Position numbers and translations under genes: made by a program
The notes under the pieces: model-generated
Told to the model about the DNA's origin: nothing
Databases searched by the model: none
What the model saw: the letters and a program-made list of their open reading frames with translations, nothing else
In this document: positions 6,339-60,885 of the stretch, in pieces
Layout: each line of letters opens with the position of its first letter
Numbering within the stretch: position 1 is the first letter of the stretch
IMG/VR virus record: IMGVR_UViG_3300042332_000965
Coordinates: 2,396-66,395 of that record
Origin: a virus
DNA length: 64,000 nt
Reading direction: 5' to 3' (one strand)

Positions 6339-7463
6339 ATGACTCAAGACGTTGAAGTAGACTTCATGCAACACACCGGCAGCGGCTTCGAAACAAGCGG
6401 CTCGGTGGCAGCGATTATGGCTAACCCCAACGCTGACTATATGTCCAAGCGACCTTTCCTTTCGGACGATCTTCGAGATCCTCGAAGCTACACTCCGGTA
6501 TGGAATGGTAAGTACGATGCTAACGGTAACCGTGAATACACGGTCCAAGTTAGCAACGCTGGAGCAGTGCTCCGAAAGAACGAATGGGAATTTTTGGATC
6601 GCCGATTGGTCGAGATTGCTAAGCCTCGCTTGCAACTCATCAACTCGATGCGTGCTGCTGGTTTGGTTGTAAACTTCCCTGAAGCATACAGCCACTCGAT
6701 CTATCAGTACGAACGAGTAAGCGATATCGACGGAGCATCCGTCAGCATGTCGCCTAAGACCAAGGGAACGAATGATCGTTCGACGGTCGATTTGGTTAGC
6801 GTTCCATTGCCTATCATCCACAAGGAATTCTATCTCGAAGCTCGCGAAATCGCTATCGCCCGTAAAACGGGCCAACGGCTTCCAGTTCACTTGCTCGACC
6901 TTGCAGGTCGCCGAGTAGCTGAAACCGCTGAGCAGATGGCTCTCGGAACTTGGGGTACTTTCACCTACGGTGGAGCAACTCTCCACGGTTTGACGAACTT
7001 CCCCGGTCGAAACACCGGAGCGTTCTTGAACCCCACTGTTGCTGGATGGACTCCAGACATGCTGTACAACAGCATTCTGACCATGATTAAGGCAGCCCAA
7101 GACGACAACCAGTTCGGTCCTTACGATCTGTACTACAGCACCGGTATGATGGTTCCGATGAATCGGATCTTCAGCCAAAACTACGCTGGTGGTTCGGTTC
7201 TCGATAAGATCCGCACAATGAGCTTGATCTCCAATGTACAGCAACTCGATTACCTATCCGGTAACCAATTGCTCTTGGTACAGCGAGATCAGATGACCGC
7301 TTCCTTGCTCATGGGCATGGATATGCGAGTTGTTCAGTGGCAGACTGACGGTGGCGAATCCATCCACTTCCGAGTGATGATGATGATGACCCCGATCTTC
7401 AGAACTGACCAACTTGGTCAAAGTGGTATCGTCCACTTCACTGGTAACAACACCACTGTTTAA
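6339..7463 (+). CDS. major capsid protein (HK97 fold, linocin/encapsulin-like clade)
   Basis: 374 aa, VPLPIIHKEF, GLTNFPGRN, GPYDLY motifs, C-terminal GIVH; canonical position; followed by hairpin. Confidence 0.88.
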   Translation: MTQDVEVDFMQHTGSGFETSGSVAAIMANPNADYMSKRPFLSDDLRDPRSYTPVWNGKYDANGNREYTVQVSNAGAVLRKNEWEFLDRRLVEIAKPRLQLINSMRAAGLVVNFPEAYSHSIYQYERVSDIDGASVSMSPKTKGTNDRSTVDLVSVPLPIIHKEFYLEAREIAIARKTGQRLPVHLLDLAGRRVAETAEQMALGTWGTFTYGGATLHGLTNFPGRNTGAFLNPTVAGWTPDMLYNSILTMIKAAQDDNQFGPYDLYYSTGMMVPMNRIFSQNYAGGSVLDKIRTMSLISNVQQLDYLSGNQLLLVQRDQMTASLLMGMDMRVVQWQTDGGESIHFRVMMMMTPIFRTDQLGQSGIVHFTGNNTTV

Positions 7464-12452: not shown

Positions 12453-12812
12453 ATGTTAAAAGTAAGTGTAAAGACCCGTACCCTTGATGTTGTAATCGAG
12501 AACGATAACGGAGATGAAGTCAAGTACAAGCTCCGGCAGATGACCGGAGCAGAGGCTGACGAGTACCGTTCCGTTAAAGCCAGTAAGATCGAAGTAGATA
12601 AGAACGGAGAGTTAGTCCGCATCTTGGACTACACCGGGCAATACATCGATCTACTCACCCGTACTTTAGTGACCGCAGAAGGCAAAGCCGTCCCGGTCAC
12701 TACGATCAACGCTTGGCCAGACGAAGCACTTAAAGAATTATTCCGAGAATCGGCTAAGCTCAATCGGCTTTCCGACACCGAAGACGAGGAACTCGACCCA
12801 AAAAAGTCCTAA
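12453..12812 (+). CDS. tail assembly chaperone (G)
   Basis: Between tube and tape measure; ends at slippery A AAA AAG (12800-12806). Confidence 0.8.
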   Translation: MLKVSVKTRTLDVVIENDNGDEVKYKLRQMTGAEADEYRSVKASKIEVDKNGELVRILDYTGQYIDLLTRTLVTAEGKAVPVTTINAWPDEALKELFRESAKLNRLSDTEDEELDPKKS

Positions 12813-13114
12813 CGGACGAAGAATACCTCTGGTTCCACTTAGCACATGAGCTAGGCTTGCCGTTACAGGTCGTCAAGGCATATACGCCGATCGACGAATT
12901 CGAAAAGTGGCAAGCCTATTTCTTTATGCGAAAGAACAAACGAGAGAAAATAGACTACTACTTAGCGGGTATTTCCCACATCATAGCTTGTAGTATGGGT
13001 GGATCTAAGAGCAAACTCGAAGACCATTTAATCACCTTTACCAACGAACAAAGCTACAATCCAGACGCAAGCAAGAATGCTTGGTTTACTGCCTTAGGAA
13101 TTAACCCACAATGA
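12800..13114 (+). CDS. tail assembly chaperone GT, -1 frameshift extension
   Basis: -1 shift at AAAAAAG gives ...KKVLTDEEYLWFHLAHELGLPLQ..., in frame with ORF 12857..13114, which lacks a good start of its own. Confidence 0.75.
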   Translation, partial: KKVLTDEEYLWFHLAHELGLPLQVVKAYTPIDEFEKWQAYFFMRKNKREKIDYYLAGISHIIACSMGGSKSKLEDHLITFTNEQSYNPDASKNAWFTALGINPQ

Positions 13115-15621
13115 GCGGTCCCCAACGCGAATTACCTGAATTGCATGTGAAGATCACCGGAGATTCCTCCGGTGCTGTTCAGGCTATGAAGGATGTCGCA
13201 GATGCTGCGAAAGCAGCAGATAAGACCATTAAGGCAAGTGGTAAAAAGACCACAAAGTCACAAAAAGAGCAGCTAGATCAACGCCAGCAGGACGTGCTGG
13301 ACTTCTACAAGAATACAGCTAAGCTGGTTGCCAAGGCCGATAAAGATGCCTACAAGCTCATGCCTTTTGCTAAAAAGGCCCAGAGCGAAGTCACCAAATT
13401 CCGAGCTAAAGCTAAGAAAGACCTAGAAGGTCTCAGCAAGGATATGGAAAAGGAATTTCGTAAGCAAGGCAAGCTGTTGCCTTCGTTTATGCGTATAGCT
13501 AAGAAGGGAGTTAATCGCGGGCCTGATCTCAACAGCTTAGTAGCAGACGCAGAGAAGAACCAAAAGCAAATAAACAATAAGGTGTCGCGGGATGTAAATA
13601 CATACCTAGCACACCAAAGACACGTACAAGATACGATTGCCAAGATTCGGGAGGCTAGGGCAAAGTCGGACAGGGAAGATGCTCAGGCTTCGGCTAGGAA
13701 TACAGAGCAAGTACGCAGATCTAGAGAGCGTAGCCGGAGAGATTATGATAAGTACCTTAGCGACATCAAAGCTAGAAACCAGAGAGAGGACGCCGAAGCA
13801 CATAGAGTACGTCGGCGATCAAGACAGCGTACCGCAAGGCAGCTAAGGAATAGACGCGATCAATCACACGCCTTCCAGAATTCTATACGATCTGGTATAG
13901 ATGGTGGGTCTATGATGGGTGCTAGAGCTGATATCTACATGCACCAGGATACCTTAAAGTCGATGGTAGGTATGACTCTAGGTATTCTCCAGCCATTCGC
14001 TCAAGTCGAAAACTACACAGTACAGATGGAAGCCTTCGCCGGATCGGCAGAGAAGGCAGCTTCGGTTGTGGCCGAGCTACAGCAGTTCGCTGTACAGTCG
14101 CCTTACACCCTCTCCGGGGTGCTAGAGGCGTCCACCACCATGATGAAGTATGGTGCTGAGGCCGAGGAAGCAGTTCGCTTAACGAAATTGCTGGGCAACG
14201 TAGCCGCAGGTAATACAGACAAACTGCGTTTGATGGCTCTTGCTGTGGGACAAGCACAAGCTTTAGGTAGGCTACAAGGACAAGAACTCAGGCAGATGGT
14301 CAATGCGGGCTTCAACCCGCTAACTATTGCTGCCCAAGAGCTAGCTGGACCTGGAGCATCAGACGAGGCTATCAAGCACCAGATGCAGATAATGCAGTCC
14401 GCGATGCGGGCAGGTAAGCTAGATTCGGGTATCATTGAAGCTGCCTTACAGGTCGCTACATCTAAGGGTGGAGATTTCGCGGGACTGACTGAGAAGCAAG
14501 CAGGCACTCTTTCTGGATTTGCAACGCAAATCATGGAAACCATAGACTTGCTCAAGATCGAAATAGTCAAACCGTTCGCTGATGACTTACGGGCTTTGCT
14601 AAAAGAGACCAAACGCTATGTGGATGCTTTAATAGCCTGGGCTAAAGCTAACCCAGAAGTTCTGCGGTATTGGGTCAAATTAGCTATTAGTGTAGGTAAG
14701 GCAATTATCTCGTTTAGTGCTTTGGCCCTCAGTATCGCATATATCAAGTGGATCATGGGTTCCATGCTAACTGTTATGGGACCATTGATTGGTACAATTC
14801 GATTACTCACAGCCGCCACGCAGTTGTTTGGAAGGCGAGCCGTACAGGCTTGGTTATCCGCAGTCGGTCCTATAGCTTTGCTAGGGGCAGCCCTAATCGG
14901 ACTGGGCATACTGGTAAAAGGACTGAACCACAAAGATGGTTTTGCTGGTATGTTTGGGGATGCTATGGCAGCAGCAGCTACTTTCGGTGGCTTCATGTGG
15001 AATTTCAAAGAGAACATGGCAAACATATTTACATTCATTGCCGCTAACTGGCGACTAATGATCGTGGATATGATGTCCTCCCTAATACCCTTCCGAAGCT
15101 CCATAGAGAATATGATGCTGCTTGGCGGTCTAGTGACCGGTCAGCAAGATGCAGTACGGGAAAGTATTGATGCTTTCAAGGAAACCGAACGACTTGCTTG
15201 GGGTCAGCTTGGTTATGATACTTCCATGCTCAAACTAGACGGACCTCTATCGGGAGAGGGAGCTAAGGATATGCTAAGCTTCCTAAATCCATTCCTAAAA
15301 GACGATCAACCATCGGTAATCCCGGATAAGCCGGATATAGACTTTAAGAAGTTTATAGGCACAGGGGGAGATTCAGGGATGCTGGGCAAGAATTTTACTG
15401 CTGCCCCGGACCACGCTGTTCGTGGATCATCCGAGCATGCGGTACGCATGTATGAGTATGGTGAGAAAGCAAGAGCATCCCAGATGGCTAGCAAAGAAAC
15501 GCATGAAAAGAAAACCGAGACGTTGCTATCTAAAATCGAAGCTAACACTAGACCGAAGACACCGACAATGAATGGCGGCACACTAGAGGAAGCCGGACTT
15601 AACATCGCAGGTATGCTATAA
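13111..15621 (+). CDS. tape measure protein
   Basis: 836 aa helical; FAVQSPYTL, ALAVGQAQALGRLQGQELRQMVNAG tape-measure domain; hydrophobic C-terminal half. Confidence 0.9.
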   Translation: MSGPQRELPELHVKITGDSSGAVQAMKDVADAAKAADKTIKASGKKTTKSQKEQLDQRQQDVLDFYKNTAKLVAKADKDAYKLMPFAKKAQSEVTKFRAKAKKDLEGLSKDMEKEFRKQGKLLPSFMRIAKKGVNRGPDLNSLVADAEKNQKQINNKVSRDVNTYLAHQRHVQDTIAKIREARAKSDREDAQASARNTEQVRRSRERSRRDYDKYLSDIKARNQREDAEAHRVRRRSRQRTARQLRNRRDQSHAFQNSIRSGIDGGSMMGARADIYMHQDTLKSMVGMTLGILQPFAQVENYTVQMEAFAGSAEKAASVVAELQQFAVQSPYTLSGVLEASTTMMKYGAEAEEAVRLTKLLGNVAAGNTDKLRLMALAVGQAQALGRLQGQELRQMVNAGFNPLTIAAQELAGPGASDEAIKHQMQIMQSAMRAGKLDSGIIEAALQVATSKGGDFAGLTEKQAGTLSGFATQIMETIDLLKIEIVKPFADDLRALLKETKRYVDALIAWAKANPEVLRYWVKLAISVGKAIISFSALALSIAYIKWIMGSMLTVMGPLIGTIRLLTAATQLFGRRAVQAWLSAVGPIALLGAALIGLGILVKGLNHKDGFAGMFGDAMAAAATFGGFMWNFKENMANIFTFIAANWRLMIVDMMSSLIPFRSSIENMMLLGGLVTGQQDAVRESIDAFKETERLAWGQLGYDTSMLKLDGPLSGEGAKDMLSFLNPFLKDDQPSVIPDKPDIDFKKFIGTGGDSGMLGKNFTAAPDHAVRGSSEHAVRMYEYGEKARASQMASKETHEKKTETLLSKIEANTRPKTPTMNGGTLEEAGLNIAGML

Positions 15622-47722: not shown

Positions 47723-48426
47723 TGCGTTTTGCTCTTTCGGGGATAGTCTTTTCCTTTAGGGTGGCGTATCGCCTCCTCTAGAGTCATGCCTGAATCTAGG
47801 CGATCTCGTAGAGTCTCTGGGTGTATATTACATTCTTTTGCCCATGCTGACAATACTTGTGTCCTACCTAATCCGGTAATATTTCTAGAATTCCGCTTAT
47901 TTCTGCTTTGTTCCTCACTAGTCGCCCAGCGACAATTATCTGGAGTATAGTTGCCATTTACATCCACACGATCGATGCTATCGCATTCCAAGGGCCTGCG
48001 GCCCATGTCCTCCAAGAAATTGTTGTAGCCATTCGTAGGGTCATTCCATCGATCACAGATACGGATTCCACGCCCTCCATAGTCTGGATACGATCGATTC
48101 TTTGTGTTGTAGCAACGGCTTTTTATGTTTACCCAAGTCCTATACTCGGTACTTTCAACATCCCCATGCCTAGTGAATGTGTCTATTAGCCAGTCCGTTA
48201 GTAGGCAGCCGCAGCTTTTAGTTCTAGCTGCCTCTAGATTAGACGTAGCATACACCCCTACACTACCACACATACAAACGCAAACTTGGTGGGCTCTGTG
48301 GCTTCCGTCGCTGTTCCGGAGCATGAACTTAGGTCCAATGGTCGTTAGACGACCGAAGGTCTCGGGAACAAAATTTTCGTAGTTCTTGTCAATTCGGATA
48401 CCATTGTGTACAATGTACTTAGCCAT
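47719..48426 (-). CDS. HNH-type homing endonuclease-like protein
   Basis: FGRLT, CVCMCG, KSCGC, YGGRGIRICDRW, SIDRVDVNGNYTPDNCRWAT..Q..N. Confidence 0.85.
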   Translation of the reverse strand: MAKYIVHNGIRIDKNYENFVPETFGRLTTIGPKFMLRNSDGSHRAHQVCVCMCGSVGVYATSNLEAARTKSCGCLLTDWLIDTFTRHGDVESTEYRTWVNIKSRCYNTKNRSYPDYGGRGIRICDRWNDPTNGYNNFLEDMGRRPLECDSIDRVDVNGNYTPDNCRWATSEEQSRNKRNSRNITGLGRTQVLSAWAKECNIHPETLRDRLDSGMTLEEAIRHPKGKDYPRKSKTQ

Positions 48427-48454
48427 GATGACTCCTATTAGTCGTTGGTGGTTA

Positions 48455-48519
48455 GAAAAGCCGAGTGGTTCCAGCCGCTCGGCTTTTCGCATTGTAGCAT
48501 AAACTAACAGTTTGTGCAA
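48455..48519 (-). promoter_or_regulatory. promoter and leader hairpin of HNH gene
   Basis: Minus strand TTGCAC-17-TACAAT, then GAAAAGCCGAG/CTCGGCTTTTC hairpin. Confidence 0.6.
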
Positions 48520-48527
48520 ATATCGGG

Positions 48528-49217
48528 TCACTTCTGCGTTTTAGCCCATTCTAATATCTCTTTAAGTCTGCGTGCCGAGCCCGCTCTAGCGGGCCAAGTC
48601 ACGCTTCGCTCTACGTCTTCTATGGGTGTATACCAAGCAGAACCCCCAGAAACCACCCCAACGATTTCATCGTTTAGCAGCACAGGTCCGCCGCTTTGAC
48701 CTGGAGAAACAACCGAGTCGCTGTGGATATAGTTCTCGTAAGCGAAGCTGACAATCCCAGAAGTTTTTAGCCAAGCTCCGTTGGCAAAGCCGAAAAAGTT
48801 AATCTGTAGTCCACTTGGTCGATACGAGAATCCTACCTTATCTACCTTGCTGTTCCGTTCCACGGAACCTAAGGGCATAGGTTTGAACTGCCTCTTGGTG
48901 CTGCAAAGCAGCACAGCTAGATCGGCTTTCTTGTCTACGGCTACTACCTTGGCATTCGGCATGTCCTTCACCGTATCGTTCTCCAGCGTGTAGACGCTGC
49001 CCTGAAACATATTGCCGCTGTCGGTTAAGACGACGTGGGCAGCGGTTCCAAGGTACGTCTTGTCGCCTACCTGTTCGAGCACGAAAGCCGTGCCCTGTGC
49101 TTGCTCCGGCGTTCGGATACGGAACACTCCGTTCTTGTCCGGATCGATCCCGAAAACGAGATTCCCCAGTAGGACTATGAAAAGTATAAATGCAGCTACA
49201 ACGAATAGTCGGTTCAT
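48528..49217 (-). CDS. secreted trypsin-like (S1) serine protease
   Basis: Signal peptide MNRLFVVAAF...; GTAAHV (His), DLAVL (Asp), GQSGGP (Ser). Confidence 0.88.
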   Translation of the reverse strand: MNRLFVVAAFILFIVLLGNLVFGIDPDKNGVFRIRTPEQAQGTAFVLEQVGDKTYLGTAAHVVLTDSGNMFQGSVYTLENDTVKDMPNAKVVAVDKKADLAVLLCSTKRQFKPMPLGSVERNSKVDKVGFSYRPSGLQINFFGFANGAWLKTSGIVSFAYENYIHSDSVVSPGQSGGPVLLNDEIVGVVSGGSAWYTPIEDVERSVTWPARAGSARRLKEILEWAKTQK

Positions 49218-51721: not shown

Positions 51722-51954
51722 TTACGTACTTCCTTCAGCATCTCCTCGATCGTATCACGAACAAGGTCGGCACCTGTCCCTGTAATTTGCTGCGTGGATA
51801 CGGTGCGGATTGCCGATAAGTTTAGGCTAGTGGTGTCCGACAGCGGACTCGTAGTAGCCAGTATAGCAATCTCCACGCCTACAGCATCGTCTGTTTTCGT
51901 GAAGGAAACGCTCTCGCCGTCCTTCAATTGCCTTAGTAGTTCTTTCAGTTGCAT
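51718..51954 (-). CDS. hypothetical protein
   Basis: GGAG RBS, tightly packed. Confidence 0.55.
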   Translation of the reverse strand: MQLKELLRQLKDGESVSFTKTDDAVGVEIAILATTSPLSDTTSLNLSAIRTVSTQQITGTGADLVRDTIEEMLKEVRK

Positions 51955-51957
51955 GTG

Positions 51958-52227
51958 TTACTCCGCTGTGCTTACTACGTGGTGAATGGTGTGGGTTTGG
52001 CCTTTGCCGTGGTGGACGATCTCTGGCCACTGCGTGTTCCCTCGGGCGTCTGTGTAGTAGACCCGAGTACCTTGATGACGGAAAGAGTAGACTTTCACCC
52101 CATCATGTTCGAATAGAAGCTCTACTTCGTAACTTGGGTTACTAGTGTATTGGATTGCTTGGGGTCGTGGTAGGTCACAACCTACGAGGACCAAGAGTAG
52201 TGCGGCTAGAATTACTGTTCTTTTCAT
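51958..52227 (-). CDS. phage lipoprotein
   Basis: Lipobox LVGC; YEVELLFEHDGVKVYSF motif. Confidence 0.7.
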   Translation of the reverse strand: MKRTVILAALLLVLVGCDLPRPQAIQYTSNPSYEVELLFEHDGVKVYSFRHQGTRVYYTDARGNTQWPEIVHHGKGQTHTIHHVVSTAE

Positions 52228-52701
52228 TTAGTTACCTACTAGTACGATTTTGTTTCTTTTGTGATACACTTTTTGGCGAATAGATTCAATGTCTTCCTGG
52301 ACTGCGGCGACTGGCCGCTTGACTCGCTTTGCGAGTGTTTTGATGGTAATCTTGTTTTGGCTCTGAATACTGTTAACCAGTTCAGTTTCGTCCCGGTCCA
52401 ACGTGAGGCGGCTTTGCTCGACGATGTTGATGTCTTTTTGTAGCAAAGCTGGGTGACGACCCAGCCTTCGACGTAGGCTAAACAGAAACGATCGCACCAT
52501 CCAGTAGGTGAATCTAGTGCGAGACGAACGGCTCGGATCGAACTTATGTCGGTGTTTTACGTAATAAAAGTAGAATTCTTGCATTAAATCTTCTGGTTCT
52601 AGACCTAAAACTGTGTTAATCCTGGCGGATTTGTGTAGAATTCCATAGATGAACTTGGCTTGTCCGTCAAAAGCATGGTCGATTTCAGCGGTGATTTGCA
52701 T
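52228..52701 (-). CDS. phage sigma70-family factor-like protein
   Basis: Region 2-like EPEDLMQE...KFDPSRS...FTYWMVR plus C-terminal HTH. Confidence 0.65.
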   Translation of the reverse strand: MQITAEIDHAFDGQAKFIYGILHKSARINTVLGLEPEDLMQEFYFYYVKHRHKFDPSRSSRTRFTYWMVRSFLFSLRRRLGRHPALLQKDINIVEQSRLTLDRDETELVNSIQSQNKITIKTLAKRVKRPVAAVQEDIESIRQKVYHKRNKIVLVGN

Positions 52702-57891: not shown

Positions 57892-57894
57892 GAG

Positions 57895-57967
57895 TGCTTC
57901 GTATGAGAATTGAACTCATGTTACGTCCTTGAAAGGGACGTGTGATAGGCCACTACACTAACGAAGC
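57895..57967 (-). tRNA. tRNA-Glu(TTC)
   Basis: GCTTCGT/ACGAAGC acceptor, D loop TAGTGGCCTAT, CGTCC-CTTTCAA-GGACG, ATGAG-TTCAATT-CTCAT; CCA not encoded. Confidence 0.9.
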
Positions 57968-58086: not shown

Positions 58087-59376
58087 CTATACGCAGTTTT
58101 CTTCGTGCTCAGTGATGAATCTGAAAACATTTTCAGAAAAACCGGTGATACTTACTATATCACCGTAGGTAATAGTAGGCTGGTAAGCAGCTACGTTGAT
58201 AACGTACATGCTCTTGCAGCCTGCTGGCTTGACTACGCGATCGTGGGACTGTTCGTCAGTGATGACGATTACCCGATCGTACTGCTTAGGTAAAGCCTGT
58301 AGGGCTTGGCCTAAGTAGGTTCCGCTGTGGTGCTGTGACCTCAGGATCTCGTCGATCGCTGGTAGTCCACCGAAAGTTTGCACTTTCACTAGACTGTTCG
58401 AGAAACTGAATACATCACAGTTCCCAGGGTAACAAGCAGCCAAAGCTGCTGCGGCATCGGCTCGCGACATATCGGACTTCGCCGATACTTTCGGCCCGAA
58501 CATGCTACCTGAAACATCCACCAGTACAGCCGTGCTGCCCTTCAGCTTAGGCAAGTTGTTGACTGCTCGCAGCAACATCTTGTTAAGCATGTTCATGTGC
58601 TCAGGCGAAGCTCGATAGGCAGCCACGTACCGGAAAGGGAATACCTTAGAAGCGTCACACGCTTCCATAGCTTCCTCAATCAAGTCACGGCTAACACCGA
58701 CAGCTTCCATGTTCCGCAAGTTGCGGATCAAGGCTAGTGCTCCCAGCTTTCGTTCGCTTAGGAGTCGTTCCCACGACGCACGGTTGTTACCGTTGGCCGA
58801 GATCTCGACTTCCCAAGTATCTGGCGTAGCCAGTTGCTTGTTAGCGATACGTGCGAACAAAGCCTTCTCGGCTTCGTCCCTAGGCTTAGGGTGCGTCAGG
58901 AACATTACGTCGCGTAGCGAGAACTTAGCATTGTCCCCTCGGTACTTGGCGAACTGGTACTCGCTGAACTTATGAAAGCAGTCAGCTAAGCCTCGCTTTA
59001 CGCGAGACGGTAGCTTCCGTCCATAAAGAGACACGAATTCTCCCATTTCGTCAGGTCGCGAAATCACCTTTCGGCAAGCATCGCGGAAGTAAGGCCCTGG
59101 TACATCAGCTAGGTGCTTCAGTAGCAGCAATGGTGCATGTCGGATACCCATAACAAATCGAGCGTTTACCGCAACTTCGGCCACTTGGGCCGGAGCGATT
59201 TGGCTCGCTAATTGGGTAATCCGACTTGCGATCGATACGCCGTTTTCGTAAAAGCCGTCTTCCCATAGGAAGCAAGCACAGATAGCCCTGTTAAGTTCAA
59301 TGATCGCATACTGTCGGCGTGCAACGCCGCCTTCGTACGTGGTCAGCTTAGACTTTTCCCTTACGTTGGTCTTCAT
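58087..59376 (-). CDS. rsr: TROVE + vWA protein (Ro60/Rsr orthologue)
   Basis: TYEGG, LWEDGFYE, FSEYQFAKY, LRDVMFLTHPKP, PDTWE, ALIRNLRN, VFPFR; MIDAS VDVSGSM and ITDEQ. Confidence 0.92.
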   Translation of the reverse strand: MKTNVREKSKLTTYEGGVARRQYAIIELNRAICACFLWEDGFYENGVSIASRITQLASQIAPAQVAEVAVNARFVMGIRHAPLLLLKHLADVPGPYFRDACRKVISRPDEMGEFVSLYGRKLPSRVKRGLADCFHKFSEYQFAKYRGDNAKFSLRDVMFLTHPKPRDEAEKALFARIANKQLATPDTWEVEISANGNNRASWERLLSERKLGALALIRNLRNMEAVGVSRDLIEEAMEACDASKVFPFRYVAAYRASPEHMNMLNKMLLRAVNNLPKLKGSTAVLVDVSGSMFGPKVSAKSDMSRADAAAALAACYPGNCDVFSFSNSLVKVQTFGGLPAIDEILRSQHHSGTYLGQALQALPKQYDRVIVITDEQSHDRVVKPAGCKSMYVINVAAYQPTITYGDIVSITGFSENVFRFITEHEENCV

Positions 59377-59407
59377 AATTCCTCCCGAGAAATGCTTCGA
59401 AAAAAAA

Positions 59408-59549
59408 AACGCAGACGAGAAAAAGCGATACGGAAATTGTCGTGCTCTACCATTGAGCTACAGGCCGGTATTAACCGGCCCAGAGGGACTCGAACCCCCA
59501 ACCACGTCATTAAAAGTGAAGTAACCGTATCAATCGCATCGTCTGCGTT
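59408..59549 (-). ncRNA. yrlA: YrlA-type Y RNA with permuted tRNA-like domain
   Basis: Closing stem AACGCAGACGA/TCGTCTGCGTT; GATGCGA-N7-GGTTACTTC; T arm GGGGG-TTCGAGT-CCCTC, loop-closed acceptor GGCCGGT/ACCGGCC, D arm GCTC-AATGGTA-GAGC; U-tract after; adjacent to Ro gene. Confidence 0.88.
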
Positions 59550-59556
59550 GGTTTTA

Positions 59557-59620
59557 GCCTTTGAGTACAGGCAACAGGGTTCTATTTATGCGAAGTAACC
59601 CTGTTTATCGCTTCAAAGGC
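59557..59620 (-). ncRNA. short Y RNA-like hairpin 2 (putative Ro-binding stem only)
   Basis: GCCTTTGA/TCAAAGGC; GAAGCGA-N7-GGTTACTTC; AACAGGGTT/AACCCTGTT. Confidence 0.75.
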
Positions 59621-59627
59621 AGTTTAT

Positions 59628-59693
59628 ACTGCGAGATCAAATTCTGACGGTATTTTTCTAAACCTGAAGTAACCGTCAAAGTCGCTTCGCAGT
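59628..59693 (-). ncRNA. short Y RNA-like hairpin 3 (putative Ro-binding stem only)
   Basis: ACTGCGA/TCGCAGT; GAAGCGA-N7-GGTTACTTC; TTTGACGGT/ACCGTCAGA. Confidence 0.75.
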
Positions 59694-59810
59694 GTTTTGT
59701 GGACCGGTCTAACCGGTCGTTTGTCTTACACTACCAATATACGCAGACTTCCGGGAACCGGAAGCTAAAATCTCCAAGAATCTAGGAAATTATTCCGCAG
59801 CCTTAGTATA

Positions 59811-59838
59811 TTGCAGGATTTTGTATTTCTGGTATCAT
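59811..59838 (+). promoter_or_regulatory. promoter candidate for large structured RNA
   Basis: TTGCAG-16-TATCAT with TG extended -10. Confidence 0.5.
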
Positions 59839-59844
59839 GGTGGC

Positions 59845-60341
59845 TATTCCGTAGGGATGCCTGGAAAGCTACCTACGGTTTGGTGTCGGACCCGCAAAGG
59901 CGGGTAATGGATTCACAGATGGGACGATCGCTTGGGCGGATACAATCCGTTTGACAATGTAAGTTGCCTGGGGTTTCCACTACTTAGCCTTGCTGGGTCC
60001 AGCGGACTGGCTCTATAGTCAGTACGGTTAGTGTCAGGTACCAAATAGCCTAGGGCGTGATTCACGCCATTAGCTACCCTGACGCAAGAGGGCCATAGCC
60101 CTCGGGCTGGAGCGGGACTGACTATCCCGCTGCGGTAGATAGACGGTAAAATCCAATCCAGGCAATGCCTACCCAGCAACCTGGACAGCCATACTGCGAA
60201 AGCAGCTACCGTCCGGCTACCGGACCTAGGGAATCAACATACTCCCTACGCCACGCACCAAGGAATCCAAAGCTACCCCGAAAGCATAGGCACCAAGGCT
60301 TATGGCTGGATAAGGGAAGTCCTCTGGACTTCCCGCATTTT
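59845..60341 (+). ncRNA. candidate large structured non-coding RNA (~490 nt)
   Basis: No credible ORF; more than ten hairpins, several 6-9 nt long-range complements; promoter upstream and GGGAAGTCC/GGACTTCCC-GCATTTT hairpin at the end. Confidence 0.55.
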
Positions 60342-60363
60342 ATAAGAAAATTAGAGAAAATAC

Positions 60364-60468
60364 TTGACTGATAGCTAAGTTTCGTTAGAATGAAGCACTG
60401 GCAGATCCAATTGCCTTCCGATAGCCGGTTTACCTTTTGGCGGGGGTAAACCGGCTCTTTTCGTTTTT
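60364..60468 (+). ncRNA. small promoter-terminator unit (~65-nt sRNA or attenuator)
   Basis: TTGACT-16-TAGAAT; GGCA/TGCC mini-hairpin; AGCCGGTTTACC/GGTAAACCGGCT then CTTTTCGTTTTT. Confidence 0.5.
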
Positions 60469-60504
60469 GTGCGGGTTTTACCCGCCTGTGGTACACTTAG
60501 TCCT

Positions 60505-60885
60505 ATGCCAGACTTTATACCCCCACAATACAATAAAACGCTTTGGGTCGGGAACCATAATCCTTGGGCCTTTGGCTTTTTCACGAACGGAACTACCACC
60601 ACGACCGAGTACCCGTTAACGGGTATTAGGGTCAATGTGACGGTCTACAAAGGGGATGAGAGGCTGGTTGGCAAATCCACAGCCGCTACGCCTACCCCTA
60701 CAGTCACGGTAACCGGCAGTCGTATCGACACTGAGTTTACGCCCGACGATACGAGAGTTATTGCCGCTGCCGTGACAGATGGGGTGAAACCCCGCTATGA
60801 AGTTGAATTTTGGGATGGAACGCGAGAAACCACCTGGGTATGGGGTAATATTACTCTGAAGGGTGGAGCCAACGACGATGAGTAG
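60505..60885 (+). CDS. virion protein (baseplate upper/fibre-adaptor-like)
   Basis: Start MPDFIPP; YEVEFWDG...TWVWGNITL pattern; precedes fibre-like genes. Confidence 0.55.
   Translation: MPDFIPPQYNKTLWVGNHNPWAFGFFTNGTTTTTEYPLTGIRVNVTVYKGDERLVGKSTAATPTPTVTVTGSRIDTEFTPDDTRVIAAAVTDGVKPRYEVEFWDGTRETTWVWGNITLKGGANDDE

What the first reader, a model, noticed from the sequence alone, without database searches (positions are those of the whole stretch)
59811..60345. ~490-nt highly structured candidate ncRNA, divergent from the Ro/Y locus, with crossing long-range pairings
Seen: the largest gene-free stretch in the window, bounded by a promoter-like site and a terminator-like hairpin. It is packed with hairpins (CCGTAGG/CCTACGG, ACCCGC/GCGGGT, GGCGTG/CACGCC, GAGGGC/GCCCTC, AGCGGGA/TCCCGCT, CTGC-GAAA-GCAG). 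Distant perfect complements: 59850-57/60243-50, 59880-85/60256-61, 59908-14/60263-69, 59964-71/60158-65, 59990-98/60171-79, 60015-23/60117-25. Several occur in parallel rather than nested order, implying pseudoknots, kissing contacts or alternative folds. It did not match RNase P, tmRNA or intron hallmarks by eye. Established: phages carry large ornate RNAs near tRNA genes (GOLLD, ROOL). Inference: a possibly new large RNA class, perhaps linked to Ro.
Basis: partly seen in the sequence, partly recalled or inferred. Interest (0 to 1): 0.8.

Follow-up and report, generated by a model that had tools for sequence, protein, structure and literature searches.

The report
Orphan structured RNA candidate in lake phage
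A roughly 525-base stretch of a lake-water phage that encodes no protein looks like a self-contained gene for a large folded RNA of no known family, but it has no relatives in any collection searched, so its fold and function remain unproven.

Summary
The sequence features are all present at the stated coordinates. The stretch lies in the largest gene-free gap of the window (59377-60468). It has stops in all six frames and no protein relatives. It ends in a strong terminator-like hairpin on the + strand. It holds 2-6 times more perfect complementary arms than shuffles.

In one natural strain variant the body carries 2 differences in 502 covered bases, against 12 in 92 in the spacers beside it. 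No Rfam family matches at E <= 10.

Three points temper the finding.
- The folding z-score (-4.6) is not unusual for this genome: 7 of 31 control windows fold as well.
- The promoter is weak.
- No homologue turned up in any collection, so covariation cannot be tested and the proposed pseudoknots are unsupported. In a nested ensemble those pairings have probability near 0.

The link to Ro is not supported. The closest Ro phage (78% identical Ro) keeps both flanks but carries an unrelated 384-aa ORF in this slot.

Best reading (confidence about 0.5): a self-contained, horizontally acquired cassette encoding a trans-acting structured RNA of an undescribed family, similar in kind to GOLLD and ROOL but not a member of either.

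The parts
59747..60360 (.). Variable cassette slot between two flanks that are conserved in the closest relative L015
   Evidence: The pairwise alignments with L015 lose homology at about 59746 on the left and regain it at about 60360 on the right. L015 has about 1.4 kb with a 384-aa ORF here instead.
59783..59812 (+). Putative weak promoter, TAGGAA-18-TATATT (inference only)
   Evidence: Read. The consensus scan does not flag it. In the run X4 variant, A59784T gives TTGGAA, which is closer to the -35 consensus.
59816..60343 (+). Candidate RNA, about 525 nt. The 5' end is inferred from the -10 element and the 3' end from the terminator.
   Evidence: Stops in all six frames. No Rfam match. 2 differences in 502 covered bases against 12 in 92 in the spacers. 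Excess of complementary arms.
59816..59833 (+). 5' strand of the predicted closing helix P1; pairs with 60257-60277
   Evidence: Pair probabilities are 0.83-0.89 for the three main segments of the helix. This is a prediction only.
60257..60277 (+). 3' strand of the predicted closing helix P1
59888..60000 (+). Long imperfect hairpin arm (Hb), 113 nt
   Evidence: Pair probabilities of its helix segments are 0.58-1.00, mostly 0.7-1.0. More stable on + (-44.4 kcal/mol) than on - (-39.1 kcal/mol).
60031..60085 (+). Hairpin Hd; holds the second AGCUACC copy
   Evidence: Pair probability 0.98-0.99 for the outer and inner stems.
60088..60103 (+). Hairpin He, GAGGGC-CAUA-GCCCUC
   Evidence: Pair probability 1.00.
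60106..60136 (+). Hairpin Hf. Its 7-nt loop CUGACUA is complementary to 60016-60022.
   Evidence: Pair probability 0.98.
60194..60205 (+). CUGC-GAAA-GCAG hairpin with a GNRA-type tetraloop
   Evidence: Pair probability 0.98.
59867..59873 (+). AGCTACC copy 1 of 4. The others are at 60072-78, 60204-10 and 60271-77; GCTACC also occurs at 60216.
   Evidence: There are 4 copies in 535 nt against 12 in the other 63.5 kb.
60314..60343 (+). Intrinsic-terminator-like hairpin (9 bp, 6 G-C, loop of 3) with its T-run
   Evidence: In the X4 variant the tail changes (60335, 60336, 60342, 60343) but keeps a T-run.

Best explanation
The stretch is a self-contained accessory cassette of a lake-water siphovirus-like phage, built like a phage 'moron' (recalled term). 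It would consist of a weak promoter near 59783-59812, a non-coding transcript of about 525 nt on the + strand (about 59816-60343) and an intrinsic terminator.

The cassette sits in a variable slot at the point where leftward transcription (Y RNAs, Ro, tRNA-Glu, replication genes) and rightward transcription (tail and structural genes) diverge.

The predicted fold has the 5' end paired to a segment just before the terminator. That closes a multi-hairpin body of at least six well-predicted hairpins.

Inferred mechanism: a stable, trans-acting folded RNA that works as a scaffold or decoy. Possible recognition elements are its repeated words (AGCUACC four times, CUGGA five times) or its loops. It does not act as an mRNA, as a leader of the neighbouring genes, or as a partner specific to Ro.

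Shown: non-coding, bounded by a terminator-like hairpin, conserved against its spacers, self-complementary beyond chance, member of no Rfam family. Inferred: transcription, strand, ends, fold and function.
For: Non-coding:
- 5-11 stops of mixed type in each of the six frames.
- The longest spurious frames have no relatives in 5.8 billion proteins (88 aa) or 1.84 billion proteins (68 aa).
- Both in-body variant sites would be non-synonymous in the 68-aa frame (worked out by hand).

Bounds:
- The terminator-like hairpin 60314-34 with its T-run exists on the + strand only.

Constraint:
- In the run X4 contigs the body has 2 listed differences in 502 covered bases. The spacers 59747-59799 and 60335-60373 have 12 in 92. 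Fisher p = 7e-9.
- The conserved block starts right after 59799 and stops at the foot of the terminator stem.

Structure:
- Complementary arms number 15/7/3 against 7.1/1.8/0.46 in shuffles. 2, 2 and 4 of 111 other windows reach the three counts.
- Lowest MFE of the 32 windows sampled.
- Local G+C of 0.55-0.56 against 0.42-0.49 in the flanks.
- Closing helix and hairpins with pair probabilities of 0.83-1.0.

Cassette nature:
- L015 keeps both flanks and has different content in the slot.

Occurrence:
- One copy in the 66.4-kb record.
- Near-identical DNA in lake and freshwater runs: 19 runs from 15 studies are listed, and 4 hold at least half of the sampled words.
Against: - No homologue anywhere, so no covariation.
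- The z-score is ordinary for this genome: 7 of 31 control windows are as low.
- The promoter fails the consensus scan.
- Folding energy does not pick a strand: -212.8 on + against -213.5 on -. Five local domains favour +, three favour - and two are equal.
- The conservation contrast rests on one variant at contig depth 2-4.4, where single differences may be errors.
- The four AGCUACC copies share no common structural context in the predicted fold. The word is also over-represented genome-wide, 12 copies outside the stretch against about 3.9 expected.
- The closest relative does without the element.
Confidence: 0.5

Rival explanations
1. It is a DNA-level cis element at the divergent switch, such as a replication origin, a partition or packaging site, or a protein-binding control region. 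The AGCTACC words would be binding sites.
For: - It lies at the strand switch between the two transcription directions.
- It has four same-orientation AGCTACC copies.
- Conservation of the body against the spacers fits any functional element.
- Folding energy does not distinguish the strands.
Against: - There are no iteron-like direct repeats. The longest direct repeat is 18 nt at 72% identity, and the AGCTACC spacings of 205, 132 and 67 are irregular.
- The stretch is richer in G+C than its flanks rather than A+T-rich.
- It is far from the terminase gene (890-2323) and from the replication genes.
- The closest relative lacks it, which an essential origin or packaging site would not allow.
- It ends in a directional terminator-like hairpin.
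Confidence: 0.13
2. It is a cis-acting transcript: a long leader, attenuator or insulator that controls read-through into the rightward tail/structural operon.
For: - Same strand as, and directly upstream of, the rightward promoter (60364-60391) and leader hairpin (60423-60456).
- Two terminator-like hairpins stand in series before the first rightward gene.
Against: - The rightward unit has its own near-consensus promoter (TTGACT-16-TAGAAT, 10 of 12) downstream of the stretch.
- That promoter and leader are conserved in L015, which lacks the stretch. The leader stem there even carries a compensatory T/A to A/T swap.
- So the operon does not depend on the stretch.
Confidence: 0.12
3. It is a non-functional filler or decayed remnant. 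Its apparent conservation would reflect recent shared ancestry or recombination, and its structure would reflect the generally structure-prone composition of this genome.
For: - It is an orphan with no homologue in any search.
- The relative lacks it.
- z-scores as low are common in this genome.
- The variant data come from a single low-depth set of contigs.
Against: - A decaying remnant should vary like the spacers. The spacers show 12 differences in 92 bases and the body 2 in 502, although both lie inside the same slot.
- There is no similarity to the 384-aa ORF of the relative.
- The excess of complementary arms is in the top 2-4% of windows.
Confidence: 0.13
4. It encodes one or more small proteins, for example the 47-aa + frame with a hydrophobic start or the 68-aa + frame.
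For: Open frames of 47 aa and 68 aa on + and 88 aa on - exist.
Against: - By eye there is no Shine-Dalgarno-like sequence before their starts.
- The 47-aa frame starts inside the putative -10 element.
- No relatives were found for the two frames searched, the 88-aa and the 68-aa. The exact look-up found none of the four frames inside the stretch. The 47-aa frame was not searched for relatives.
- Both in-body variant sites are non-synonymous in the 68-aa frame. There are no synonymous differences, although the spacers differ by 13%.
Confidence: 0.04
5. It is a very divergent member of a known large RNA family (GOLLD, ROOL or another) that lies beyond the reach of the covariance models.
For: - The kind of host and habitat match: a lake phage with tRNA and Y-RNA genes within 2 kb.
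- GOLLD and ROOL are phage or prophage RNAs that often lie near tRNA islands (PMC12286853, passages seen).
Against: No match to any of 4227 Rfam models at E <= 10 with lax filters on the 551-nt stretch. In the 1301-nt search the only overlap is a 20-bit match at the terminator.
Confidence: 0.05

Closest known systems
GOLLD and ROOL large ornate RNAs of phages and prophages
   Same: - A large non-coding stretch of several hundred nt, rich in hairpins, in a phage genome.
- tRNA and tRNA-like (Y RNA) genes lie within 2 kb, and the DNA comes from lake metagenomes.
- GOLLD and ROOL are described as phage or prophage RNAs of unknown function, often near tRNA islands, with pseudoknots and kissing loops (PMC12286853; abstract start and passages seen).
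   Different: - No match to their Rfam models or to any other.
- About 525 nt, against more than 800 nt for many GOLLD members.
- No family and no covariation: a single lineage only.
- Multimer formation and pseudoknots are untested here.
Phage 'moron' cassettes (promoter, gene, terminator inserted between conserved genes); the concept is recalled, not taken from a call
   Same: - A self-contained unit with its own terminator and a possible promoter.
- It sits between flanks that are conserved in the closest relative, which carries different content in the slot.
   Different: The cargo is non-coding, whereas classic morons encode proteins.
Bacterial and phage Y RNAs (YrlA-like) bound by Ro
   Same: It lies about 270 nt from a YrlA-like RNA (59419-59540, 38.7 bits) and about 435 nt from a TROVE/Ro gene.
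   Different: - No YrlA match inside the stretch.
- Opposite strand and four to five times longer.
- Absent from all 28 other Ro loci fetched. 8 of the 13 loci scanned with Rfam do show YrlA-like matches next to Ro.
Multi-site protein-sponge RNAs such as CsrB/RsmZ or CrcZ (recalled, not from a call)
   Same: A stand-alone terminated RNA of a few hundred nt that carries a short word several times: AGCUACC four times, CUGGA five times against 0.5 expected, GGA 17 times against 9.6.
   Different: - The words are not presented in hairpin loops in the predicted fold.
- The ANGGA-type core is not enriched: AGGA occurs 2 times against 2.4 expected.
- No binding protein is known.

Membership tests
GOLLD RNA | Match to the Rfam covariance model, including its conserved 3' domain | tested here: not met
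   No match at the gathering threshold or at E <= 10.
ROOL RNA | Match to the Rfam covariance model | tested here: not met
   no match.
Y RNA (YrlA-like) | Match to the YrlA model (Ro-binding stem plus tRNA-like module) | tested here: not met
   The only YrlA match is at 59419-59540 on the - strand, outside the stretch. There is none in 59800-60350.
Y RNA (YrlA-like) | Conserved linkage to a Ro gene | tested here: not met
   Absent from L015 (Ro 78% identical) and from the other 27 Ro loci fetched.
RNase P RNA, tmRNA, group I and group II introns, riboswitches and the other Rfam families | Match to the family's covariance model | tested here: not met
   0 matches among 4227 families at E <= 10 on 59800-60350. 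ARAGORN finds no tmRNA.
Independent bacterial-type ncRNA gene | Intrinsic terminator at the 3' end | tested here: met
   60314-60334, 9 bp, followed by GCATTTTATA on the + strand.
Independent bacterial-type ncRNA gene | Promoter at the 5' end | tested here: inconclusive
   The consensus scan does not flag one. By eye there is TAGGAA-18-TATATT. The phage also encodes a sigma-factor-like protein, so non-consensus promoters are possible.
Independent bacterial-type ncRNA gene | A discrete transcript | not testable with these tools
   No RNA run is listed among the 19 holders.
Structured RNA family (evolutionary definition) | Compensatory base changes across homologues | not testable with these tools
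   No homologue was found. The one strain variant has only two in-body changes, 60243 T>C and 60255 G>A.
MITE or other multi-copy mobile element | Several copies; terminal inverted repeats with a target duplication | tested here: not met
   One copy in the phage record. No copy in the viral or genome collections by the scans run. The only flanking repeat is a 9-mer matching at 8 of 9 positions (D8).

The most novel reading that the evidence does not exclude
The stretch is the first seen member of a new class of large ornate phage RNA. It would be expressed from its own cassette at the head of the early/late switch. Its many mutually exclusive or crossing complementary segments (A-F, the loop CUGACUA with 60016-22, the AGCU-containing repeats) would be real tertiary or intermolecular contacts. 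They would build a pseudoknotted or multimeric particle, as found for GOLLD and ROOL, possibly serving as an anti-defence decoy or RNA/protein container during infection.
Probability: 0.15. Interest if true: 0.8.

Novelty: new variant of a known kind. Interest (0 to 1): 0.5.

Why it matters
Large folded RNAs of phages (GOLLD, ROOL) are among the least understood RNAs. They were recently shown to form RNA-only cages, and their function is still unknown.

A further unrelated example would show that phages carry more such RNAs than the few catalogued families. This one is short enough for structure probing and cryo-EM. It is conserved almost base for base in lake populations, and it sits in a swappable cassette.

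The case is also a caution. In this genome a folding z-score of -4.6 is background, and short crossing complements arise from hairpins with similar arms. Such evidence alone should not be read as pseudoknots.

Tried and rejected
Homologue searches, all empty:
- blastn (distant mode) against 50,697 phage records.
- nhmmer and blastn against 6 IMG/VR Ro loci, 22 metagenome Ro loci, and the whole records of 5 and then 2 related viruses. In one search, three loci were not held and so were not searched.
- A spaced AGCTACC pattern in viral contigs gave 119 or more stretches. None was related by nhmmer or blastn.
- An exact 21-mer in viral contigs gave 0. An exact 22-mer in genome contigs gave 0.
- A pattern of loops and junctions only gave 1 stretch, which by reading looks like a chance match in coding-looking sequence.
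- Two spurious frames used as degenerate probes gave nothing: viral contigs 39 and 17 stretches, genome contigs 600 and 244 stretches, none confirmed.
- Protein collections, probed with spurious ORFs, gave nothing.
- The earlier findings of this scan held nothing.

Limits of these searches:
- All collection scans need exact words. Homologues below roughly 85-90% identity could have been missed.

Expression: no RNA holder was listed among the 19 runs.

Other ideas tested and dropped:
- A pseudogene of the relative's 384-aa ORF: tblastn gave nothing, best E 5.4, and that hit lies elsewhere in the window.
- Stop-codon recoding: the stops in every frame are of mixed type.
- Pairing with the Y RNAs, tRNA-Glu or the downstream leader: duplex energies lie within the shuffled controls, with 30-84% of controls at least as low.
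- A recurring phage promoter word: 3 matches against 4.4 expected.
- Calling the strand from energy: undecided.
- Naming the host through the glycosyltransferase gene: no close relative in genome contigs.
- The L008 relative (tail gene 96% identical): it is not syntenic upstream and has no Rfam matches.

Literature:
- The searches listed nothing on a large RNA linked to Ro, or on this element, in phages.
- This rests on listings and abstract starts, plus passages of PMC12286853.
- Supplementary files could not be seen.
Full report
**Where it lies**

The window is bases 2396-66395 of a 66,395-base IMG/VR virus record judged 94% complete. The record encodes:
- a large terminase, a portal, a head protein and a tape-measure protein;
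- family-A DNA polymerase, a DnaB-like helicase, a clamp-loader-like ATPase, a RecA-like protein, a sigma-factor-like protein and PhoH.

It is therefore a tailed phage. Near-identical DNA is held by 19 listed sequencing runs from 15 studies, mostly labelled lake water or freshwater. 4 of these runs hold at least half of the sampled words, and one may be the source sample.

Genes from 22392 to 59376 run leftward and genes from 60469 onward run rightward. The finding therefore lies at the divergent switch.

To its left, all on the - strand:
- a TROVE/Ro gene at 58087-59376 (Pfam E 1e-18);
- a YrlA-like RNA at 59419-59540 (38.7 bits, below the gathering score of 69, E 1.1e-6);
- tRNA-Glu at 57894-57967.

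To its right, on the + strand:
- a near-consensus promoter, TTGACT-16-TAGAAT, at 60364-60391;
- a 15-bp terminator-like hairpin at 60423-60456;
- the first rightward ORF.

**Check of the observation**

The distant ones do lie in parallel order. With ORFs of 100 aa or more as the measure, 59377-60468 (1092 nt) is the largest uncovered stretch of the window. The next is 506 nt.

The stretch 59811-60345 has 5-11 stops of mixed type in each of the six frames.

Two controls gave different answers.
- Complementary arms exceed chance. Perfect arms of at least 7, 8 and 9 nt number 15, 7 and 3. Dinucleotide shuffles give 7.1, 1.8 and 0.46. 2, 1 and 2 of 300 shuffles reach the observed values, and 2, 2 and 4 of 111 other 535-nt windows of the phage do so.
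- The folding z-score does not stand out. The values are -4.62 on + and -5.59 on -, with 0 of 100 shuffles folding as well. But 7 of 31 other + strand windows of 535 nt reach z <= -4.6 (20 shuffles each; only starts 1-48001 were reached before the time limit).
- The absolute MFE of -214.6 kcal/mol is the lowest of the 32 windows. The stretch is also richer in G+C (0.55-0.56) than its flanks (0.42-0.49).

The terminator-like hairpin at 60314-60334, followed by GCATTTTATA, is the second best in 18 kb. By eye it is TAGGAA-18-TATATT (59783-59812), 8 of 12 matches.

**Not a known family, not coding**

- At gathering thresholds the only Rfam match in the window is the tRNA.
- At E <= 10 on 59300-60600, the only match overlapping the stretch is a 20-bit hit to a Brucella sRNA model. 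Its gathering score is 114, and the hit covers just the terminator hairpin.
- On 59800-60350 alone, with laxer filters, there are 0 matches among 4227 families. This excludes detectable membership in RNase P RNA, tmRNA, group I or II introns, riboswitches, GOLLD, ROOL, OLE, HEARO and Y RNA.
- The exact sequences of six ORFs in or beside the stretch are not in the 15-billion-protein collection.
- The 88-aa frame has no relative among 5.8 billion proteins. The 68-aa frame has none among 1.84 billion representatives.

**Evidence of constraint**

Contigs of four runs were laid on 59700-60500. Three runs (X5, X8, X11) match without differences wherever their contigs are at least 99% alike. X8 and X11 each also have one short unlike contig, which runs on into unrelated G+C-rich sequence.

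Run X4 holds a variant. Its listed differences are:
- six at 59755-59799;
- six at 60335-60373;
- only two in the body, 60243 T>C and 60255 G>A.

The covered body is 59800-60124 plus 60158-60334, which is 502 bases. Against 12 differences in 92 spacer bases (59747-59799 and 60335-60373) this gives Fisher p = 7e-9. If the one unlisted difference of the record covering 60158-60319 is also counted, p = 3e-8.

The conserved block begins right after 59799 and ends at the foot of the terminator stem. The tail changes but keeps a T-run. 60374-60466 (the leader hairpin) and 59724-59754 (the Y-like RNA) are also unchanged.

So three blocks are conserved and two short spacers vary by about 13%. The simplest reading is purifying selection on the body.

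Caveats: this is one variant at contig depth 2-4.4, and the tool warns that single differences at such depth may be errors.

Both body changes would be non-synonymous in the 68-aa frame (worked out by hand from the frame). No synonymous-type variation is seen, which argues against coding.

Two sites cannot decide any structure.

**Relatives and the slot**

- Ro was used to fetch 6 loci from viral contigs (39-43% identity) and 22 from metagenome contigs. Only L015 (78%) and the fragment L017 (79%) are close.
- nhmmer and blastn with window 59380-60520 find L015 matching window 59380-59762 and 60354-60502 and nothing between.
- The pairwise alignments place the loss of homology at about 59746 and its return at about 60360.
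- In L015 the slot is about 1.4 kb. It holds a 384-aa ORF pointing leftward, with no Pfam family and only a PHROG match at E 0.0037. It has no similarity to the window.
- The stretch is therefore a swappable cassette, not a conserved companion of Ro. None of the other Ro loci has a homologue.
- 8 of the 13 loci scanned with Rfam show YrlA-like matches beside Ro (L022, L035; L007, L027, L016, L028). L002 and L034 were matched to the window's Y region only by blastn/nhmmer.
- The phage's closest tail-gene relative (L008, 96% aa identity) is not syntenic upstream.
- Two terminase relatives are short fragments without the stretch.

**Homologue hunt**

Every further search was empty:
- phage GenBank records;
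- whole related virus records;
- three DNA patterns in viral contigs;
- one DNA pattern in genome contigs;
- two spurious frames used as degenerate six-word probes in both collections.

The record has one copy. Relatives below about 85-90% identity could therefore exist unseen. As things stand, the element is known from one phage lineage only, and covariation cannot be tested.

**Predicted anatomy (prediction only)**

Taking 59816-60343 as the transcript, the nested ensemble gives:
- a closing helix 59816-33/60257-77, with pair probability 0.83-0.89 for its main segments;
- a long arm 59888-60000 (segments 0.58-1.00, mostly 0.7-1.0);
- hairpins 60006-23 (0.94), 60031-85 (0.98), 60088-103 (1.00), 60106-36 (0.98), 60194-205 with a GAAA loop (0.98), 60227-48 (0.95) and 60285-304 (0.94);
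- the terminator (1.00).

The 5' strand of the closing helix begins just where a -10 element at 59807-12 would place the start, which is coherent with a stable RNA.

Enforcing any one of them costs 2.7-8.9 kcal/mol. They compete with local helices.

Several of them can be traced to hairpins or loops with similar sequences:
- CGUAGGGA at 59850 and CCUAGGGA at 60225;
- UGCCUGG at 59858 and 59965;
- the arm ACUGGCU at 60006 and the loop CUGACUA at 60118.

They could be alternative folds, tertiary contacts or coincidence. Nothing here tells which.

Energy does not pick the strand: -212.8 on + against -213.5 on -. Five local domains favour +, three favour - and two are equal. The + call therefore rests on the terminator's T-run and the -10 element.

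**Repeated words**

- AGCTACC occurs four times in the stretch (59867, 60072, 60204, 60271), plus GCTACC at 60216. There are 12 copies in the other 63.5 kb, which is itself about three times the expectation.
- CTGGA occurs 5 times against 0.5 expected, and GGA 17 times against 9.6.
- In the predicted fold the AGCUACC copies lie on 3' strands of different helices rather than in loops. A protein-site reading is therefore only a lead.
- No special complementarity to the Y RNAs, tRNA-Glu or the downstream leader was found.

**Explanation and rivals**

The best-supported reading is a self-contained cassette for a trans-acting folded RNA of an undescribed family (confidence 0.5). The steps shown and the steps inferred are set out under Best explanation.

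The rivals are:
- a DNA-level element (0.13);
- a cis-acting leader or insulator (0.12);
- non-functional filler (0.13);
- small proteins (0.04);
- a known family diverged beyond detection (0.05).

**Comparison with the known**

In kind it resembles GOLLD and ROOL. These are large phage or prophage RNAs of unknown function, often near tRNA islands, with pseudoknots and kissing loops that build multimers (PMC12286853: abstract start, passages). It fails their membership test, which is a match to the Rfam model.

Its cassette build resembles phage morons (recalled concept), but with non-coding cargo.

Papers on bacterial and phage Ro/Y RNAs were seen only as listings and abstract starts (PMC4201824, PMC12135203). 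Nothing in those listings mentions a large RNA beside Ro. Supplementary files could not be consulted.

**Verdict**

This is a real and unusual non-coding block with good signs of constraint and of a terminator-bounded gene. It is an orphan, with no test of transcription and no covariation. Interest 0.5.

Noticed in passing
window 59419-59735, - strand: There appear to be three tandem Y-like RNAs upstream of Ro, not one.
- The first is the YrlA-like match with a tRNA-like module at 59419-59540.
- Two further stem-loops each repeat the word GAAGTAACC...ATCGC (near 59513, 59590 and 59664 on the + strand).
- The middle one (about 59551-59621) is a 71-nt insertion absent from the relative L015.
   Followed up: partly
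window 60364-60470, + strand; L015 1600-1760, - strand: A near-consensus promoter (TTGACT-16-TAGAAT) is followed by a 15-bp terminator-like hairpin ahead of the rightward genes. Both are conserved in L015. The hairpin stem carries a compensatory T/A to A/T swap (GGTTTACC...GGTAAACC against GGTATACC...GGTATACC). This fits a real attenuator, leader or small RNA.
   Followed up: partly
L015 2016-3170, + strand: The closest relative fills the same slot with a 384-aa ORF. It has no Pfam family and only a marginal PHROG match (E 0.0037), so it is an orphan accessory gene in a swappable position at the head of the leftward genes.
   Followed up: partly
window, whole; e.g. 12801-13335, 48001-48535, 6401-6935: Many coding windows of this phage fold far better than their dinucleotide shuffles, with z down to -7.3. 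7 of 31 windows are at or below -4.6. Folding z-scores are therefore a poor ncRNA signal in this genome.
   Followed up: no
window 51722-52227: This is the second largest stretch without an ORF of 100 aa or more (506 nt). It lies just downstream of the sigma-factor-like gene on the - strand (52228-52701). It has no Rfam match at gathering thresholds.
   Followed up: no
window 59749-59765: A perfect 7-bp hairpin, CTTCCGG-GAA-CCGGAAG, lies inside the left spacer of the cassette, between the Y-like RNA and the putative promoter. Its role is unknown.
   Followed up: no
L022 2071-2241, L035 2465-3013, L027 230-401 and 1780-1860 (upstream of Ro); L003 5315-5560 and L027 3996-4460 (downstream of Ro): Other phage or metagenome Ro loci carry tRNA genes next to Ro, and those with a YrlA-like match have it just upstream of Ro. 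Several also have gene-free gaps of 500-840 nt just upstream of Ro that are only partly explained by the Y-RNA matches.
   Followed up: partly
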